Positions 556-7,990 of a stretch of 16,551 nucleotides of DNA are shown here, piece after piece. The notes under the pieces were generated by a model, which saw only the letters and a list, made by a program, of their open reading frames with translations, had not been told where the DNA came from and ran no database searches. Each line of letters opens with the position of its first letter. Within the stretch, counting starts at the first letter, position 1. The DNA comes from Limnofasciculus baicalensis BBK-W-15 (GTDB lineage Bacteria > Cyanobacteriota > Cyanobacteriia > Cyanobacteriales > Coleofasciculaceae), in contig NZ_JAMZMM010000114.1 in NCBI RefSeq assembly GCF_024178385.1, positions 1-16,551 on the forward strand. Reading direction: 5' to 3'. The position numbers and the translations under genes were made by a program.

Positions 556-781
556 TTTTACCTCCGTAGCCTAGTACCCTAAAACCTGATACCATATTTG
601 AGTTTAACATAAAATCTTCAGCTCGTTCTTTGGGGTGTGCCCCCTGCGGCGGAGTCAGTGAATGAAAAAAAACTAAATTACCGTAGTATAATCAAAATCA
701 GAGACACCCTCTGAAAAATCACCCAAATATTTGAAAACTCCTTTGCGCCCTTTGCGTTAAAAAAAACTAAAACACCAAACC

Positions 782-1750: not shown

Positions 1751-2201
1751 CAATATATTTCTGAATTATAATAGTGGAGAAATGAAGGAGAATGGGGGAG
1801 TAATACCGAATTTATTGGTGTTAAAAAAAAACCATATTTTCACTATCAAAAACCCCATGTCCACCCAATTCAAAGCCGAAGTATTCCAAAACTAATACCT
1901 ACCCCAAGGAGCAAAAGAAGTCCATGCGATTATGACAGTTTCCGTTCGCATTTCTAAGTCTAGCTAATTTTAGTTTTCCCAACTGAGTAATGTTTTTTCT
2001 AAAATGTCCTACTCCCTTTCCCCTGTGAAAATAGTGAATTATTTAAACACTAAGACACTAAGGAAGGGAAATGATATTCTTGGCTAAATCGCTTTCGGGC
2101 TGGAGAAGAGATGATACTGTATTAAAGTAGATCGGAATAGGGTATAAAAACGGCAAAAGGTTATTAGCCCCCCTTTGGATTATTCTACCACGATCGCTGA
2201 A

Positions 2202-2756
2202 ATGACGCAAATTCGTAAATTGTTGAGAATTATTTTTAATAATTTCAACGAAGTTAAGGAATCAGATTATTGTTCGGAATGTGGTGTAAAAATTCAGGGT
2301 GGAGTTGAACTACCATTAGGAAATAATTCGCTAATATCAACAGTGCTGCAAACAGATAATTTTGTCATCACTTGCCCCGATTGTACGGCAATACACGAAC
2401 CCGATAGCGATGATGCAATCTCTCAGGGTTTTCAAGATCTAGATGGCTTTGAAATCAGTACTCCAGTTGTCGCTGTTGCTATCTCTTTGTTGACATTATT
2501 TGGATTGATGCCACGGATTAAGGAGTATTCGGAATATTTTTTTTTAACACAGAGGTACACAGAGGGCAACACAGAGGTACACAGAGGTACACAGAGAATA
2601 AGACAGAGGTATCCAGAGGGTTTTCGGGATAAATTCGTTTTTACTCAATATCTAATTCTAAATACTGAGGAGGTACAGAAGAAACTAACCAAACTCCATT
2701 ATCAGAACAATAAAATGTATAACCATCTCTCTGCATCGCCATCGCATTTACTCTAA
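2202..2756 (+). CDS. Doubtful small zinc-ribbon protein (CSECG...CPDC) with one predicted TM helix. Its 3' third runs through a tandem repeat and overlaps kptA.
   Basis: The ORF track starts at TTG 2175, and the first ATG is at 2202. A CxxC...CxxC zinc ribbon and the hydrophobic stretch TPVVAVAISLLTLFGLM are present. The last ~60 codons translate the CACAGAGGTA decamer array and overlap the convergent kptA 3' end by 116 bp, so the true 3' end is uncertain. Confidence 0.35.
   Translation: MTQIRKLLRIIFNNFNEVKESDYCSECGVKIQGGVELPLGNNSLISTVLQTDNFVITCPDCTAIHEPDSDDAISQGFQDLDGFEISTPVVAVAISLLTLFGLMPRIKEYSEYFFLTQRYTEGNTEVHRGTQRIRQRYPEGFRDKFVFTQYLILNTEEVQKKLTKLHYQNNKMYNHLSASPSHLL
2538..2620. repeat. 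Left terminal inverted repeat (T9-AA-CACAGAGGTACACAGAGG) followed by a degenerate tandem array of a ~10-bp unit CACAGAGGTA.
   Basis: Read directly from the sequence: tttttttttaa cacagaggta cacagagggcaa cacagaggta cacagaggta cacagagaataaga cagaggtatc cagaggg. Its reverse complement recurs at 3235..3285. Confidence 0.8.
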
Positions 2757-3192
2757 ATATTACAGGAAGACCATGCCTTGCGCCAACCTTTTTCGCAGTC
2801 CCCATATCGCCAGATAAATGGACATGATGGCGGGACATTTTCCGCAAACCCTCCCGCAAAATTGACTTTACCGCCTTATTTCCCGTACCATGATAAAGTA
2901 CATCTGGCGGAATCGCAGCTTCCAACTGCAAATCAATCTCTACACTATGCCCTTGATTAGCCCGAATTCTAGTACCAGTATCATCAAAAGAAAACCGTTG
3001 TTTATCATTATGGGCAACAACTTCCTTTAACTCAGTACGACTAAGAGCAAAAGAATCCCGTCTACAAGCATCCAATAATTCATCCACATCAACCCACCCC
3101 CCAGGCGCAAGCGTTAAACCAATTTTATCAGGATGATGCCGCAAATGATAACTCAAATACTTACTAATTTTAACCAGTCGAGAATCCTTCAT
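2641..3192 (-). CDS. kptA: RNA 2'-phosphotransferase (Tpt1/KptA family).
   Basis: 183 aa. Motifs match E. coli KptA closely: SKYLSYHLRHHPDKIGL, GGWVDVDELL, KQRFSFDD, IRANQGHS, LYHGT and HVHLS. Confidence 0.92.
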   Translation of the reverse strand: MKDSRLVKISKYLSYHLRHHPDKIGLTLAPGGWVDVDELLDACRRDSFALSRTELKEVVAHNDKQRFSFDDTGTRIRANQGHSVEIDLQLEAAIPPDVLYHGTGNKAVKSILREGLRKMSRHHVHLSGDMGTAKKVGARHGLPVIFRVNAMAMQRDGYTFYCSDNGVWLVSSVPPQYLELDIE

Positions 3193-3234
3193 ATTTGGTT
3201 ATTAGTTATTTGTTTAGAAAAATACTTCTCAAAA

Positions 3235-3285
3235 CCCTCTGCGTACCTCTGTGCCAACCTCTGCGTACCTCTGTGTTAAAAAAAA
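3235..3285. repeat. Right terminal inverted repeat plus array, the reverse complement of the 2538..2620 array, ending ...CCTCTGTG-TTAAAAAAAA.
   Basis: The reverse complement of 3258..3285 is ttttttttaacacagaggtacGcagagg, against ttttttttaacacagaggtacAcagagg at 2538..2565: 27 of 28 positions match. It lies between the xseA stop and the kptA start. Confidence 0.8.
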
Positions 3286-3317
3286 TCCCCATTATCATCC
3301 CCATAACCTCAATATCA

Positions 3318-4550
3318 TCAATCAACAATCTCCACCACTTTAACCATAACCTCCCCCTCCCCAAGCTTAACTTGTAACTCCTCCCCCACAACCAACCCAG
3401 ATACCGATCGCAAAATTGTACCATCATTCCCTCTAACTACCGCATAACCCCGTTTCAACACATTATTCGGATCGAGTGTTGCTAACTTTTGCCGCAGAAA
3501 TTCACACTCCTGATGCCCTTGACTTAAACGCCTAGATGTGGATTTAATTAACTCCTGCTTCAGGATGGCGATCGCATTTTTCTGTACCTGTAATTTTCTG
3601 TCAAGTGGTAGCGGTTGCAATCGCTCTTTCAGATAATCTAACCGATGGCGATATTTTCCTAAAACCTCCATTACCCCCTGAGAAAGAGCGCGTTTTCGCT
3701 CCTGATGTTGGGCAATCAAAGTACTTAATTCTGGCACGGCTGTTGCGGCTACAGCGGTGGGAGTATGTACGGAAACATCTGCGGCTAAATCTGCCAAAGA
3801 CTCATCTCTTTCATGCCCAATGCCTGTGAGTACCGGAATGGAGCAATTTGCGATCGCTCTCACCACCCGTTCATCATTAAAACAAGCCAAATCCTCCGTT
3901 GCACCACCGCCTCGTGATATTATTAATAATTGCGCTCTCCCATCCCTTTCAACTCGCTCAATTGCTTTAACTATTGATTCTGGTGCTGTTTCTCCCTGTA
4001 CTTGGGCAGGTGATAATAAAACTTTTAATCCCGGATATCGATAGTATAGAGTCTGTTGAATATCGCCCCAAGCTGCTGCTTGAGGTGAAGTAACAACTGC
4101 TATAATTTGGGGATTAATTGGTAAATTACGCTTACGTTGCGCCGCAAATAATCCTTCTGCTGCTAATTGATTCCGAAGTTGATTGTAGCGTAATGATTGG
4201 AAGCCCTCACCTCCTGGTAAAGCCTGCCAAACTGCTATTTGATATTCTCCTCGTTGCGGATAAATCCGGATACTACCTAAAACAATAAGTTGTTCTCCTG
4301 ACTGTGGTAACTGGACTAATTTACTAATTTGACTTTGCCAGACTACACATTTAATTGATGCTTTCGTATTGGGATCTTGGAGGGTAAAAAATATACCGCT
4401 GCGATGTTTAGATGTACTGGAAACTTCTCCAATTACCCAAGCCCGGCGGAGTTGCTCGTCTTCTTCTAATAATTCTTGAATATAGTCGGTTAAACTGGCA
4501 ACTGATAGAGTTGTTTCTAGTATCTGAGTAGAGGAAGTTGATGAATTCAT
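3318..4550 (-). CDS. xseA: Exodeoxyribonuclease VII large subunit.
   Basis: 410 aa. N-terminal OB-fold region (WVIGEVSS...GIFFTLQD) and the catalytic core motif ISRGGGATEDLACFNDERVVRAIANCSIPVLTGIGHERD, both typical of XseA. Confidence 0.93.
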   Translation of the reverse strand: MNSSTSSTQILETTLSVASLTDYIQELLEEDEQLRRAWVIGEVSSTSKHRSGIFFTLQDPNTKASIKCVVWQSQISKLVQLPQSGEQLIVLGSIRIYPQRGEYQIAVWQALPGGEGFQSLRYNQLRNQLAAEGLFAAQRKRNLPINPQIIAVVTSPQAAAWGDIQQTLYYRYPGLKVLLSPAQVQGETAPESIVKAIERVERDGRAQLLIISRGGGATEDLACFNDERVVRAIANCSIPVLTGIGHERDESLADLAADVSVHTPTAVAATAVPELSTLIAQHQERKRALSQGVMEVLGKYRHRLDYLKERLQPLPLDRKLQVQKNAIAILKQELIKSTSRRLSQGHQECEFLRQKLATLDPNNVLKRGYAVVRGNDGTILRSVSGLVVGEELQVKLGEGEVMVKVVEIVD

Positions 4551-5025: not shown

Positions 5026-6123
5026 ATGGCTCCTAAAACATCCATGGCTACCCCAATCACGAACAGCCCTGAAAAGGAAAAAGCCCTAAACTTGGTGCTA
5101 ACCCAAATAGAGCGGACCTTTGGCAAAGGTTCCATCATGCGCTTGGGCGATGCTACCCGCATGAGAGTAGAAACCATCTCCAGCGGCGCAATTACCCTGG
5201 ATTTAGCCTTGGGCGGTGGTTTACCAAAAGGGCGCGTGATTGAGATTTACGGACCTGAAAGTTCTGGTAAAACAACTCTCGCCTTACATGCAGTAGCAGA
5301 AGTCCAGAAAAATGGTGGGGTGGCGGCGTTTGTAGATGCCGAACACGCCCTCGATCCCACTTACTCTGCTGCTTTGGGGGTTGATATTGCCAACCTCTTA
5401 GTTTCTCAACCCGATAACGGCGAGTCGGCGCTAGAAATAGTAGATCAGCTAGTCCGCTCTTCAGCAGTAGATATTGTCGTAATTGACTCAGTAGCCGCCT
5501 TAGTTCCTCGTGCCGAAATCGAAGGCGAAATGGGCGATACTCAGGTAGGTTTGCAAGCGCGTCTGATGAGCAAAGCGCTCCGTAAAATTGCCGGGAATAT
5601 TGGTCGCTCCGGCTGTACTGTCATTTTCCTCAACCAGTTGCGCCAAAAAATCGGTGTTACTTACGGTTCACCAGAAGTGACAACAGGCGGTAATGCGCTA
5701 AAGTTTTATGCGTCAGTTCGTCTGGATATTCGTCGAATTCAAACTCTCAAAAAAGGCAATGAAGGCGAATACGGAATCCGCGCCAAAGTCAAGGTTGCCA
5801 AGAATAAAGTTGCTCCGCCTTTCCGCATTGCTGAGTTTGATATTATCTTTGGACAAGGAATTTCTAGTTTGGGGTGTTTAGTTGACTTAGCTGAACAAAC
5901 TGGAGTAATTGTCCGTAAGGGAGCTTGGTACAGCTACAACGGAGAAAATATTGGTCAAGGTCGCGATAATACAATGAAGTATCTGGAAGATAAATCGGAA
6001 ATTGTTGATATTATCGATAAACAAGTGCGGGAGAAACTAGAGATGGGCGCTGTAGTTTCTGCTAATTCAGTTAATCCTGTTGATATTGAGGAGGAAGAGG
6101 AAATTGTTGATGATGATATGTAA
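5026..6123 (+). CDS. recA: Recombinase RecA.
   Basis: Near-identical to Anabaena/Nostoc RecA across the protein. Walker A is GPESSGKTT; other blocks include [37 protein letters not shown] and [15 protein letters not shown], followed by an acidic C-terminal tail. The in-frame ATG at 5044 ([15 protein letters not shown]...) aligns better with Anabaena RecA and may be the true start. Confidence 0.97.
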
Positions 6124-6271: not shown

Positions 6272-6326
6272 CTTCATCCTTCATCCTTCATCCTTTACCC
6301 TTCATCCTTCACCCTTCATCCTTTTA
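6272..6326. repeat. STRR-like heptamer tandem repeat, (CCTTCAT) in about 7.5 copies.
   Basis: cttcat ccttcat ccttcat cctttac ccttcat ccttcac ccttcat cctttt. The stop codon and last codons of the FHA gene (minus strand) fall inside the repeat. Confidence 0.85.
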
Positions 6327-7287: not shown

Positions 7288-7578
7288 CTATTCCCCTCTT
7301 TGTTCCAGCCGCAATAACCAAACCATCAAAGCCACAATCCCAATTTGCAATCCCAGGTTGGGAATGGCTGTAGCAACTTCTTGACCAGCAGCTAAATCAG
7401 TTAAGAATATTACTACACCAATGAAACCAGATGCACCGAAGGCCACATAAATAAATTTTCTCAATCCCCGATAGGGAGCTTTCGCCTCAGCTCTCAATCT
7501 GGCATATTTTTCCGGGCTGAGGCGCAGAGGGTTGATTTTAGGCTTGGGCGGGGGATTTTTTGAGGTTGAGTTGGTCAT
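7288..7578 (-). CDS. Small membrane protein (96 aa) with a basic N-terminus and two predicted TM helices.
   Basis: ORF reads LSPEKYARLRAEAKAPYRGLRK, followed by two hydrophobic helices (FIYVAFGASGFIGVVIFL and LGLQIGIVALMVWLL). Confidence 0.6.
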   Translation of the reverse strand: MTNSTSKNPPPKPKINPLRLSPEKYARLRAEAKAPYRGLRKFIYVAFGASGFIGVVIFLTDLAAGQEVATAIPNLGLQIGIVALMVWLLRLEQRGE

Positions 7579-7683
7579 TTTTTGATTGACTGGGTTGGTT
7601 ACTCATAAAAACACCTCCGTCGTTGGAAACTCTGTGTCTACCCTGCGGGAAGCAAGCTATAGACCAGAGAGGAAAACGCGGCA

Positions 7684-7755
7684 GCGGTTTTAACCGCCTA
7701 CCCCGTAAAGGGTGGAGGGGTATGGTTGCCCCTCCGTGGAGATATGGTTGTCTCC
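7684..7755. other. Three consecutive hairpins; the last two share the loop TATGGTTG.
   Basis: gcggtt-tt-aaccgc; ggagggg-TATGGTTG-cccctcc (7714-7735); ggaga-TATGGTTG-tctcc (7738-7755). Confidence 0.6.
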
Positions 7756-7942
7756 AGTCTCTTTCGAGTAAAGTTAGCTTTGCCAATGTTATCGGTCGGT
7801 AACTATCCAAAAAGCACTGGTTTAACCCGTTACGCCTGTTTAACTTTTCGGTTCTAGAGCAAGGGACTAGCTTCGCATCCCCTGGTAGGTTCTTGAACAC
7901 TTGCCGATAACGTAGTCCGCAAGAGACTGAGGCTGGTCAACT

Positions 7943-7990
7943 TCCGGGCTTCAGCTTTTTTGCTGGAAGCCCCGTGTCTTTAGACAGGGG
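7943..7990. repeat. Two abutting hairpins. The second is a dispersed repeat, ccccgtgtctttagacNgggg (copy 1).
   Basis: Hairpin 1 is gggcttcagc-tttttt-gctggaagccc. Hairpin 2 (7970-7990) is ccccgtgtc-ttta-gacagggg, and is repeated at 8307-8327. Confidence 0.7.

What the first reader, a model, noticed from the sequence alone, without database searches (positions are those of the whole stretch)
2538..3285. kptA is carried inside a 748-bp segment bounded by 28-bp near-perfect inverted repeats with internal decamer arrays
TTTTTTTTAACACAGAGGTACACAGAGG at 2538-2565 matches the reverse complement of 3258-3285 at 27 of 28 positions. Each terminus is extended inward by a degenerate tandem array of the ~10-bp unit CACAGAGGTA, 5-6 units on the left and 3-4 on the right. 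The only gene between the repeats is kptA. The repeats sit exactly in the xseA-kptA spacer and just past the kptA stop. This could be a MITE-like or cassette-like mobilisation of kptA. Alternatively, because both arrays are transcribed on the same strand as xseA and kptA, it could be a long-range RNA stem enclosing the kptA cistron, acting as a processing or stability element. Neither idea is a described feature of kptA loci.
Basis: seen in the sequence. Interest (0 to 1): 0.65.

Follow-up and report, generated by a model that had tools for sequence, protein, structure and literature searches.

The report
Dispersed repeat arms bracketing kptA
The inverted repeats on either side of kptA are real, but they are two copies of a widespread repeat that looks like selfish DNA and normally wraps a small nuclease gene (GxxExxY), so they are probably not a device specific to kptA.

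Summary
The arms 2538-2587 and 3236-3285 are 50 nt long and 88% complementary. Each is a complete element: T-run, AAC, then 4-7 tandem ~10-nt units (CRCAGAGGNN), ending in GGGTTT.

The arms are not kptA-specific. A third copy lies at 731-767. The same arms occur in many cyanobacteria, mostly as single arms, and in more than 10 other phyla as compact hairpins. Across phyla they tightly flank the small PD-(D/E)XK gene family GxxExxY (TIGR04256). In 47 of 78 metagenomic GxxExxY genes the flanks form a clear inverted repeat.

Relatives that keep xseA-kptA have the upstream arm only. More distant kptA loci have none. The two window arms resemble each other no more than they resemble arms in unrelated genera.

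Mismatches between arms around GxxExxY genes show no bias toward G·U pairs on the sense strand (68 vs 70). The arms therefore behave as DNA inverted repeats, not as a selected RNA stem.

Best reading: two single arms of an apparently undescribed MITE/REPIN-like family sit in the two spacers around a resident kptA. A ~50-bp stem around the kptA mRNA would form if both arms are transcribed together, but selection for it is not shown.

The parts
3231..3285 (-). Right arm, upstream of kptA. Read on the minus strand it is T8-AAC-ACAGAGGT-ACGCAGAGGTTGG-CACAGAGGT-ACGCAGAGGGTTTT: 4 units spaced 10-13-10 nt. It starts 32 nt after the xseA stop and ends 38 nt before the kptA ATG.
   Evidence: nhmmer with a model of 25 cyanobacterial arms gives 52.4 bits, E=2.5e-15. 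An arm occupies the same position in L007, L001-L006.
2538..2624 (+). Left arm, just past the kptA stop and in inverted orientation to the right arm. It reads T-run (T9, 2537-2545)-AAC, then 7 units (the last three degenerate), ending CAGAGGGTTTT. It was expanded by an internal ~32-nt tandem duplication.
   Evidence: period 32, 2.3 copies. nhmmer 39.7 and 19.3 bits. No counterpart downstream of kptA in L007, L123, L001 or L004.
2641..3192 (-). kptA (RNA 2'-phosphotransferase, 183 aa). It is a resident gene enclosed by the two arms.
   Evidence: PF01885 E=1.4e-53. NF002014 equivalog, 280.9 bits against a cutoff of 239. xseA-kptA synteny in relatives.
3318..4550 (-). xseA (exonuclease VII large subunit), the co-directional gene upstream of the right arm.
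   Evidence: PF02601 and PF13742.
731..767 (-). Third, shorter copy of the same arm family. On the minus strand it reads T8-AAC-GCAAAGG-GCGCAAAGG. It lies 15 nt upstream of the PP2C gene start at 782, in a divergent spacer.
   Evidence: Sequence. nhmmer 18.8 bits, E=7.7e-5.

Best explanation
The two termini are independent copies ('arms') of a dispersed, multi-copy DNA repeat family. An arm is a run of 3-7 tandem ~10-nt units (core CRCNNAG, here CRCAGAGG). It has a fixed outer end (T-run/TTAAC) and, in cyanobacteria, an inner GGGTTT end. The complete form of the family is an inverted pair of arms. The pair either tightly flanks a ~120-aa PD-(D/E)XK 'GxxExxY' gene or forms a compact ORF-less hairpin. 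Cyanobacteria also carry many single arms. I infer a selfish element resembling a MITE or REPIN, whose arms are DNA-level terminal repeats, possibly acted on by the GxxExxY nuclease. In this genome one arm sits in the xseA-kptA spacer, a site occupied since the common ancestor with UBA11149-like relatives but with turned-over content. A second arm was gained, or uniquely retained, just past the kptA stop in the opposite orientation. kptA itself is a resident housekeeping gene, not cargo. A by-product (inferred): if both arms are on the xseA-kptA transcript, they would pair into a ~50-bp duplex around the cistron, which would be a natural RNase III substrate. Shown here: the repeat family, its distribution, its association with GxxExxY, and the absence of the 3' arm in relatives. 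Inferred: mobility, a role for GxxExxY, and any effect on kptA expression.
For: (1) A third arm lies in the window at 731-767.
They come from cyanobacteria and more than 10 other phyla. None has kptA or xseA nearby.
(3) Several genomes carry multiple copies: Oscillochloris trichoides x5, Ramlibacter x3, Cyanosarcina x3. The Oscillochloris copies are near-identical, including the loop, but sit in different flanks.
(4) GxxExxY genes are tightly flanked by the arms in L054, L086, L069, L037 and L093.
(5) In 47 of 78 metagenomic GxxExxY loci the flanks form an inverted repeat scoring at least 30, against 0 of 78 after shuffling.
(6) Annotated RefSeq examples exist: NZ_OY725952.1 and NZ_CP147018.1.
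(7) Relatives with 84-87% identical KptA keep xseA-arm-kptA but lack a downstream arm. kptA loci at 75-77% identity have no arms.
(8) The window arms are 34/40 identical in the core. Arms from unrelated genera match them at 34-36/40.
(9) Arm mismatches around GxxExxY genes split 68 G·U-compatible on the sense strand against 70 on the antisense strand, with 93 transversions. That is no RNA signature.
(10) Among arm pairs 150-800 bp apart that do not enclose GxxExxY, there is 1 convergent, 1 divergent and 1 tandem pair, so there is no excess of gene-enclosing pairs.
Against: The geometry around kptA (arm ends 38 nt before the ATG; the other arm starts 16 nt after the stop) is the same tight fit seen around GxxExxY genes and around queF in Nodularia (L084). 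All five transition mismatches between the window arms are G·U on the kptA sense strand (one-sided p about 0.03). The closest relative lineage also has an inverted arm pair around another small unknown ORF (L005). With only about 1 other arm per 16.5 kb, a chance convergent pair within this window is roughly a 1-2% event, although several are expected per genome. Mobility was never observed directly: no clean filled-versus-empty site and no target-site duplication.
Confidence: 0.6

Rival explanations
1. Cassette reading: arm-kptA-arm is one unit of the same element family, in which kptA has replaced the usual GxxExxY gene as captured cargo. The whole block could then be moved, excised or converted as a cassette.
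For: The arms fit kptA as tightly as they fit GxxExxY genes. Other non-GxxExxY small genes are enclosed the same way: queF in Nodularia L084 and an unknown ~94-aa ORF in L005. Compact and gene-bearing forms share the same arm orientation, purine-rich arm first.
Against: xseA-kptA synteny is conserved, and relatives carry only the 5' arm. The arms are unequal (7 vs 4 units) and no more similar to each other than to arms in other genera. No kptA elsewhere is flanked by arms. There is no excess of convergent pairs outside GxxExxY. No empty site or target duplication was found.
Confidence: 0.15
2. Functional RNA stem: the two arms pair in the xseA-kptA transcript. This forms a long-range duplex that is cleaved by RNase III, or that sequesters the kptA ribosome-binding region, and so controls kptA mRNA processing, stability or translation. 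Known parallels are rRNA processing stems, 23S intervening sequences and hok mRNA fold-back inhibition.
For: The stem appears in both the MFE and centroid folds of 2520-3300 (minus strand), with z = -8.4. The joined arms fold at -84.9 kcal/mol on the sense strand against -78.8 on the antisense strand, with 7 G·U pairs against 1. No terminator-like site lies between the kptA stop and the left arm. Single arms in cyanobacteria tend to point the same way as the downstream gene, 20 vs 8.
Against: The family-wide strand test shows no G·U enrichment on the sense strand (68 vs 70) and many transversions. In L054 the asymmetry runs opposite to the gene. Relatives with the same xseA-kptA operon lack the 3' arm. 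No Rfam family matches.
Confidence: 0.15
3. Protein-binding array: the 10-bp phased units are operator or iteron-like sites for a DNA-binding regulator (for example NtcA through GTAN8TAC, or an OmpR-type or ribbon-helix-helix protein) that controls kptA.
For: The 10-bp period places every unit on one face of the helix. One perfect GTAN8TAC lies in the left arm at 2577-2590.
Against: There is only one GTAN8TAC, none in the right arm and none in the orthologous arms, and the window-wide count is at chance level (3 found, 2.0 expected). The same arrays occur next to unrelated genes in many phyla. Unit sequence varies between elements while flanking genes are unrelated.
Confidence: 0.04

Closest known systems
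REPINs and their RAYT transposases (REP doublets forming hairpins; PMC3116915)
   Same: Short extragenic repeats in inverted pairs that form hairpins. Many copies per genome. The associated gene is itself flanked by inverted copies. ORF-less doublets far outnumber the gene.
   Different: The associated ORF is a ~120-aa PD-(D/E)XK GxxExxY protein, not a Y1 (IS200-like) RAYT. The arms are tandem arrays of ~10-nt units rather than a single 20-nt palindrome with GTAG. The unit core and the architecture recur across many phyla.
MITEs (for example Nezha in Nostocales; recalled from memory, not tested)
   Same: Terminal inverted repeats, small size, multiple copies, intergenic location, nested insertions (L005).
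   Different: No target-site duplication was demonstrated. No parent insertion sequence with a recognised transposase. Single arms are common in cyanobacteria.
ORF-bearing intervening sequences of 23S rRNA (Coxiella and Leptospira IVS; PMC4990558)
   Same: An element of ~430-480 nt consisting of a small ORF of unknown function enclosed by ~28-bp terminal inverted repeats that form a stem. Sporadic, horizontally transferred distribution.
   Different: These elements are not in rRNA: no LSU rRNA or any Rfam hit in the window region or in 20 GxxExxY loci. The IVS ORF is S23p (a four-helix bundle), not GxxExxY or kptA. RNase III excision is not shown here, and the strand test gives no RNA signature.
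Integron gene cassettes and attC sites
   Same: Small promoterless genes bounded by imperfect inverted repeats with AAC...GTT-like outer ends. Occasional tandem clustering of units (L142, L149).
   Different: Each gene is flanked by two half-sites in inverted orientation, not followed by one complete attC. No R''/L''/L'/R' organisation. No integrase or attI nearby. The arms are made of tandem units.
Small dispersed repeats (SDR) of Nostocaceae (Elhai 2008; cited in PMC3116915 and PMC5861425)
   Same: Very small dispersed repeats in the intergenic DNA of filamentous cyanobacteria.
   Different: SDRs are 21-27 nt and are reported only in Nostocaceae (PMC5861425). These arms are 35-90 nt, made of tandem units, and cross phyla. 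The SDR paper itself could not be read, so identity with an SDR family is not excluded for the 22-nt double unit.

Membership tests
   Left arm 7 units, right arm 4 units. nhmmer matches to the cyanobacterial arm model at E=2.5e-15 and 2.3e-11.
GTTAA/A-run | tested here: met
   Same orientation as 8 of 9 compact pairs and as the GxxExxY units.
   38 nt before the kptA ATG and 16 nt after the stop. Compare.
   The enclosed gene is kptA. tblastn finds no GxxExxY gene anywhere in the window.
MITE | Terminal inverted repeats | tested here: met
   50 nt, 88% complementary.
MITE | Target-site duplication flanking the element | tested here: inconclusive
   The flanks are CGGAATA / TCCCCAT, so no direct repeat. 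A palindromic TA or TTAA at the ends cannot be told apart from an extension of the inverted repeat.
MITE | Many dispersed copies, with presence/absence polymorphism | tested here: inconclusive
   Multi-copy status is met. No clean filled-versus-empty site was found.
MITE | Derived from an autonomous insertion sequence that encodes a transposase | tested here: not met
   No recurrent neighbouring gene family other than GxxExxY. GxxExxY is not a known transposase (PMC3424549: function unknown).
REPIN/RAYT | Association with a RAYT (Y1 transposase) gene | tested here: not met
   No recurrent Y1_Tnp next to arms. The only Y1_Tnp seen (L004) is an IS605-type gene 3.9 kb away, paired with OrfB.
REPIN/RAYT | Repeat doublets in inverted orientation that form a hairpin | tested here: met
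   Compact forms. The window pair folds into a long stem.
23S rRNA intervening sequence | Inserted in a 23S rRNA helix | tested here: not met
   No LSU rRNA match in the window or in 20 GxxExxY loci.
23S rRNA intervening sequence | Excised from the transcript by RNase III at the terminal stem | not testable with these tools
   Needs RNA end mapping. Only a thermodynamic prediction is available.
Integron cassette | One attC site 3' of the gene, within an array next to intI/attI | tested here: not met
   Half-sites on both sides of the gene and no integrase among the window ORFs.
Structured RNA family (Rfam) | Match to a curated covariance model | tested here: not met
   nothing on the arms.

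The most novel reading that the evidence does not exclude
The tandem-unit arms are the cis-acting ends of an undescribed, cross-phylum family of very small mobile cassettes that normally carry a GxxExxY PD-(D/E)XK nuclease gene. In this cyanobacterium the same ends enclose kptA as a working unit, as they enclose queF in a Nodularia. On this reading a housekeeping RNA-repair gene has been packaged and can be moved, converted or excised with its arms. In the most extreme version, the excision happens at the RNA level by a nuclease-plus-ligase route that would create the 2'-phosphate junctions KptA removes.
Probability: 0.12. Interest if true: 0.8.

Novelty: new variant of a known kind. Interest (0 to 1): 0.5.

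Why it matters
For kptA the result is deflationary. The inverted repeat does not mark a kptA-specific mobile cassette or riboregulator, and the bacterial role of KptA is no clearer.

The repeat family it belongs to is the interesting part. One architecture recurs from cyanobacteria to Acidobacteriota, Chloroflexota, Bacteroidota and Proteobacteria. It consists of tandem ~10-nt units in inverted arms that fit closely around a ~120-aa PD-(D/E)XK gene. It has abundant ORF-less hairpin derivatives and, in cyanobacteria, single arms. I found no Rfam model, no annotation in RefSeq records and no paper that describes it.

If GxxExxY is the enzyme that spreads these arms, this would be a new nuclease-driven counterpart of the REPIN/RAYT system. 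It would also give a function to a large 'unknown' protein family.

In practice, such arms create long inverted repeats around ordinary genes. Genome scans, assemblers and RNA-structure screens will keep flagging them.

Tried and rejected
1. NtcA or other operator reading. GTAN8TAC occurs once in the left arm and never in the right or orthologous arms, and the window count is at chance level.
2. Known RNA family. Rfam found nothing at gathering thresholds on the window, at permissive E-value on 2400-3400, on 6 hairpin loci, or on 20 GxxExxY loci.
3. Selection for an RNA stem, tested by G·U against A·C asymmetry relative to the enclosed gene. No bias (68 vs 70). The per-locus energy asymmetry is inconsistent.
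4. 'The arm supplies the stop codon of the upstream gene.' True in some loci (both sides of queF in L084), but 17 of 164 against 12 and 10 in control frames is not an enrichment.
5. Using the + strand ORF 2175-2546 to test whether the left arm travels with that gene. The ORF has no homologues at all.
6. A clean insertion/deletion between L004 and L005 to define element ends. The region was replaced, not cleanly inserted.
7. Target-site duplication from near-identical Oscillochloris copies. The boundaries are ambiguous.
8. A recurrent neighbouring gene such as a transposase, RAYT or integrase. None besides GxxExxY.
9. Literature searches with six 16-18-mers of the arms in both orientations, run twice. 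No relevant paper. 'GxxExxY', PF13366 and TIGR04256 return only 'function unknown'. The Elhai 2008 SDR paper is not held.
10. The exact window KptA is not in the assembly collection, so the source genome could not be retrieved.
11. GxxExxY in viral contigs. Only 2 of 7 loci have arms, and the distant phage homologues have none.
Full report
**The observation**

The sequence is as described, and the match is better than described. The repeat finder pairs 2538-2587 with 3236-3285: 50 nt, 88% complementary, 648 nt apart. The 28-nt termini match at 27/28.

The decamer arrays are far beyond chance. CACAGAGGTA with up to 1 mismatch occurs 7 times against 0.53 expected, and none of 200 shuffles reached 7. 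CARAGGN4CARAGG occurs 5 times against 0.01 expected. TRF also reports both arrays.

Read in a common orientation, both copies have the same anatomy:
- a T-run, then AAC;
- tandem ~10-nt units (CACAGAGGTA or CGCAGAGGTA), with a 12-13-nt step after the second unit;
- a shared inner end, CAGAGGGTTTT.

The full elements are therefore 2538-2624 (7 units, expanded by a ~32-nt internal duplication) and 3231-3285 (4 units).

The gene between the arms is kptA (2641-3192, minus strand; PF01885, NCBIfam equivalog). xseA (3318-4550, minus) lies upstream and recA (5026-6123, plus) beyond it. The right arm ends 38 nt before the kptA ATG. The left arm begins 16 nt after the kptA stop.

**Orthologous loci**

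The exact KptA protein is not in the assembly collection. The nearest relatives are 84-87% identical.
- MAGs named Cyanobacteria bacterium UBA11149 (L001-L006) and a JGI contig (L007) keep xseA-kptA.
- All of these carry an arm in the xseA-kptA spacer, at the same place and in the same orientation.
- The content of that arm has turned over. L007 and the distal copy in L005 have CGCAAAGG units. The window and the kptA-proximal copy in L005 have CAGAGG units.
- L001-L006 also carry a ~190-bp insert containing an arm, flanked by an 18-nt direct repeat of the xseA 3' end (alignment A3).
- None of L007, L123, L001 and L004 has an arm downstream of kptA.
- kptA loci at 75-77% identity have different synteny (kptA-NUDIX-AAA, kptA-Uma2) and no arms at all.

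So kptA is a resident gene. The upstream arm site is old. The downstream arm is peculiar to this genome.

**The arms are a dispersed family**

A third, shorter copy lies at 731-767 in the window itself.

None of them has kptA or xseA nearby.

About 40% of the stretches are cyanobacterial: Nostoc, Coleofasciculus, Cyanosarcina, Rivularia, Chamaesiphon and others. These show the same T-run-AAC-4-unit arm. It is usually single, sometimes followed at once by the inverse arm.

The rest come from Acidobacteriota, Burkholderiales, Chloroflexota, Planctomycetota, Bacteroidota, Zetaproteobacteria, Desulfobacterota, Elusimicrobia and one archaeal MAG. There the element is a compact hairpin: TTAACC-(3 units)-loop of 4-100 nt-(3 inverse units)-GGTTAA.

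Several genomes contribute multiple copies. The Oscillochloris copies are near-identical, including the loop, but lie in unrelated flanks. That pattern is what recent spread would leave.

No Rfam family matches the arms. No neighbouring gene family recurs in these loci.

**The arms are the characteristic flanks of GxxExxY genes**

Among the pattern-seeded loci, five have a GxxExxY gene (TIGR04256, PD-(D/E)XK) fitted between the arms. They are Trichlorobacter L054, Chamaesiphon L086, Anaerolineales L069, Zetaproteobacteria L037, and a pseudogene with T-run...A-run arms in a Coleofasciculaceae MAG, L093.

I then fetched 80 GxxExxY loci from metagenomes. Nearly all show inverted tandem-unit arms touching the ORF. 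The distance between arms is 375-455 bp.
- 47 of 78 have a flank inverted-repeat score of at least 30.
- After shuffling, 0 of 78 reach that score.
- In cross-locus comparisons, 12 of 78 do.

Unit sequence differs between elements (CGCCGAG, CACAGAG, CGCAAAG, CACGAAG, CACAGTG and others). Within an element it is uniform across units and across both arms.

Annotated RefSeq records show the same thing, with the arms left unannotated:
- Bacteroides finegoldii NZ_OY725952.1: radA-[arm]-GxxExxY-[arm]-FAD protein.
- Bernardetia NZ_CP147018.1.

The flanking genes are ordinary housekeeping genes with no recurrent family. None of 20 loci tested lies in rRNA. In the one paper found that classifies PF13366, the family has unknown function.

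**DNA repeat or RNA stem?**

The enclosed gene defines the sense strand. That allows a test: do transition mismatches between the arms fall as G·U on that strand (expected for a selected RNA stem) or as A·C?

Over the 49 GxxExxY loci whose flanks aligned well enough to score, out of 78 examined:
- 68 mismatches are G·U-compatible on the sense strand;
- 70 are G·U-compatible on the antisense strand;
- 93 are transversions.

There is no RNA signature, so the arms behave as DNA inverted repeats.

In the window, five of the six mismatches are G·U on the kptA sense strand. The joined arms fold better on that strand (-84.9 vs -78.8 kcal/mol). The long-range stem appears in the MFE and centroid structures of the kptA region, with z = -8.4. 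Taken alone this is suggestive (about p = 0.03). But L054 shows the opposite asymmetry, and the family shows none. I treat it as probably chance.

**Unit or coincidence?**

For a unit:
- The fit around kptA is as tight as around GxxExxY genes.
- queF in a Nodularia MAG is enclosed in the same way (L084).
- L005, the closest relative lineage, has an arm pair around an unknown ~94-aa ORF that is interrupted by a nested inverted-repeat element.

Against a unit:
- Relatives lack the 3' arm.
- The arms are unequal.
- Their 34/40 core identity is matched or exceeded by arms from unrelated genera (34-36/40).
- In an nhmmer census of the seeded loci, arm pairs 150-800 bp apart that do not enclose GxxExxY are 1 convergent, 1 divergent and 1 tandem.

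A rough estimate (my inference): with about one other arm per 16.5 kb, a convergent pair around one gene is about a 0.1% event per gene. That gives several per genome, and a genome-wide scan would find them.

Single arms in cyanobacteria are mostly intergenic and tend to point the same way as the downstream gene (20 vs 8). The right arm fits that pattern.

**Mechanism I commit to**

Confidence is about 0.6. The two termini are independent copies of a selfish DNA repeat resembling a MITE or REPIN. Its complete form is an inverted pair of tandem-unit arms around a GxxExxY nuclease gene, or around nothing.

By analogy with RAYT and REPINs, GxxExxY is the likely enzyme that acts on the arms. This is inferred, not shown.

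kptA is a bystander. If the arms are transcribed together they will pair. That could expose the transcript to RNase III or mask the kptA leader. This is a possible side effect, not a demonstrated function.

The rivals are a true kptA cassette (0.15), a selected RNA stem (0.15) and a protein-binding array (0.04; the NtcA motif idea fails).

**Comparison with known systems**

The family resembles REPIN/RAYT systems (PMC3116915), MITEs and ORF-bearing 23S rRNA intervening sequences (PMC4990558). The Coxiella IVS is 428-444 nt with 28-bp terminal inverted repeats, a small ORF and RNase III excision.

The family fails a defining test of each:
- no RAYT;
- no transposase and no demonstrable target duplication;
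- not located in rRNA.

It also fails the integron cassette pattern.

SDRs of Nostocaceae are shorter and restricted to that lineage (PMC5861425). I could not read the original SDR paper.

I found no description of these arms. That search covered only the open-access library, so absence of a description is provisional.

Noticed in passing
window 7768-7998 (minus): Strong HEARO RNA match (RF02033, 143.9 bits against a gathering score of 83), the RNA that normally precedes an IscB/HNH gene. Downstream there are only short ORFs (7538-7900 with no Pfam; 7288-7578 DUF3493). This looks like an ORF-less HEARO copy. It lies next to a tRNA at 8183-8255.
   Followed up: partly
window 13622-16288 (minus): An 888-aa protein with a full set of major vault protein domains (Vault repeats and MVP_shoulder, E=2.8e-64). 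It is a bacterial homologue of the eukaryotic vault shell protein.
   Followed up: partly
window 2175-2756 (plus): This ORF reads through the left arm and overlaps kptA antisense by 116 nt. With T8 instead of T9 at 2537-2545 it would stop at the arm's TAA. Its N-terminal 124 aa (two CxxC pairs and a hydrophobic segment) have no homologue in 5.8 billion proteins.
   Followed up: partly
window 6272-6323, 10797-10838, 13421-13453, 13560-13584: Heptamer tandem arrays (CTTCATC, TTGGTTG, TAATTGC, CCCCACT) of the STRR type typical of filamentous cyanobacteria. One lies inside the PAS/histidine-kinase gene.
   Followed up: no
L005 1866-2039: A separate ~165-bp element with 21-23-nt terminal inverted repeats (GGTCTACCGTACTTAGCGTGC ... 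GGCACACTAAGTACGGTAGAACC) is nested inside the small ORF enclosed by arms. Removing it restores a continuous ~94-aa reading frame with no family match.
   Followed up: partly
L001 5660-5900; L005 280-500: In the UBA11149-like genomes the xseA-kptA spacer carries a ~190-bp insert (arm plus ~130 nt). It is flanked by an 18-nt direct repeat of the xseA 3' end (TTATGGAGGTTTTTGATT). This could be a footprint of how arms are inserted or duplicated.
   Followed up: partly
L084 6644-7189 (Nodularia MAG): queF (preQ1 synthase) is enclosed by inverted arms. On each side the TAA inside the arm's outer end is the stop codon of a long neighbouring ORF (466 and 157 codons).
   Followed up: partly
L135, L152, L200: Three metagenomic contigs have a GxxExxY element directly after the same housekeeping gene, whose product ends ...RMLYRLYP (a tRNA-synthetase-like C-terminus). 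Each has a different unit type in its arms (CGCCGAG vs CGCAGAG). This indicates either repeated insertion at one site or concerted replacement of all units in both arms.
   Followed up: no
L142, L149, L133, L141: GxxExxY elements and ORF-less hairpins often sit back to back, about 10 nt apart. This gives short arrays that superficially resemble cassette arrays.
   Followed up: no
L004 6077-6682: An IS200/IS605-type pair (Y1_Tnp plus OrfB N-terminus) lies about 3.9 kb downstream of kptA in one UBA11149 MAG. It is not adjacent to any arm.
   Followed up: no
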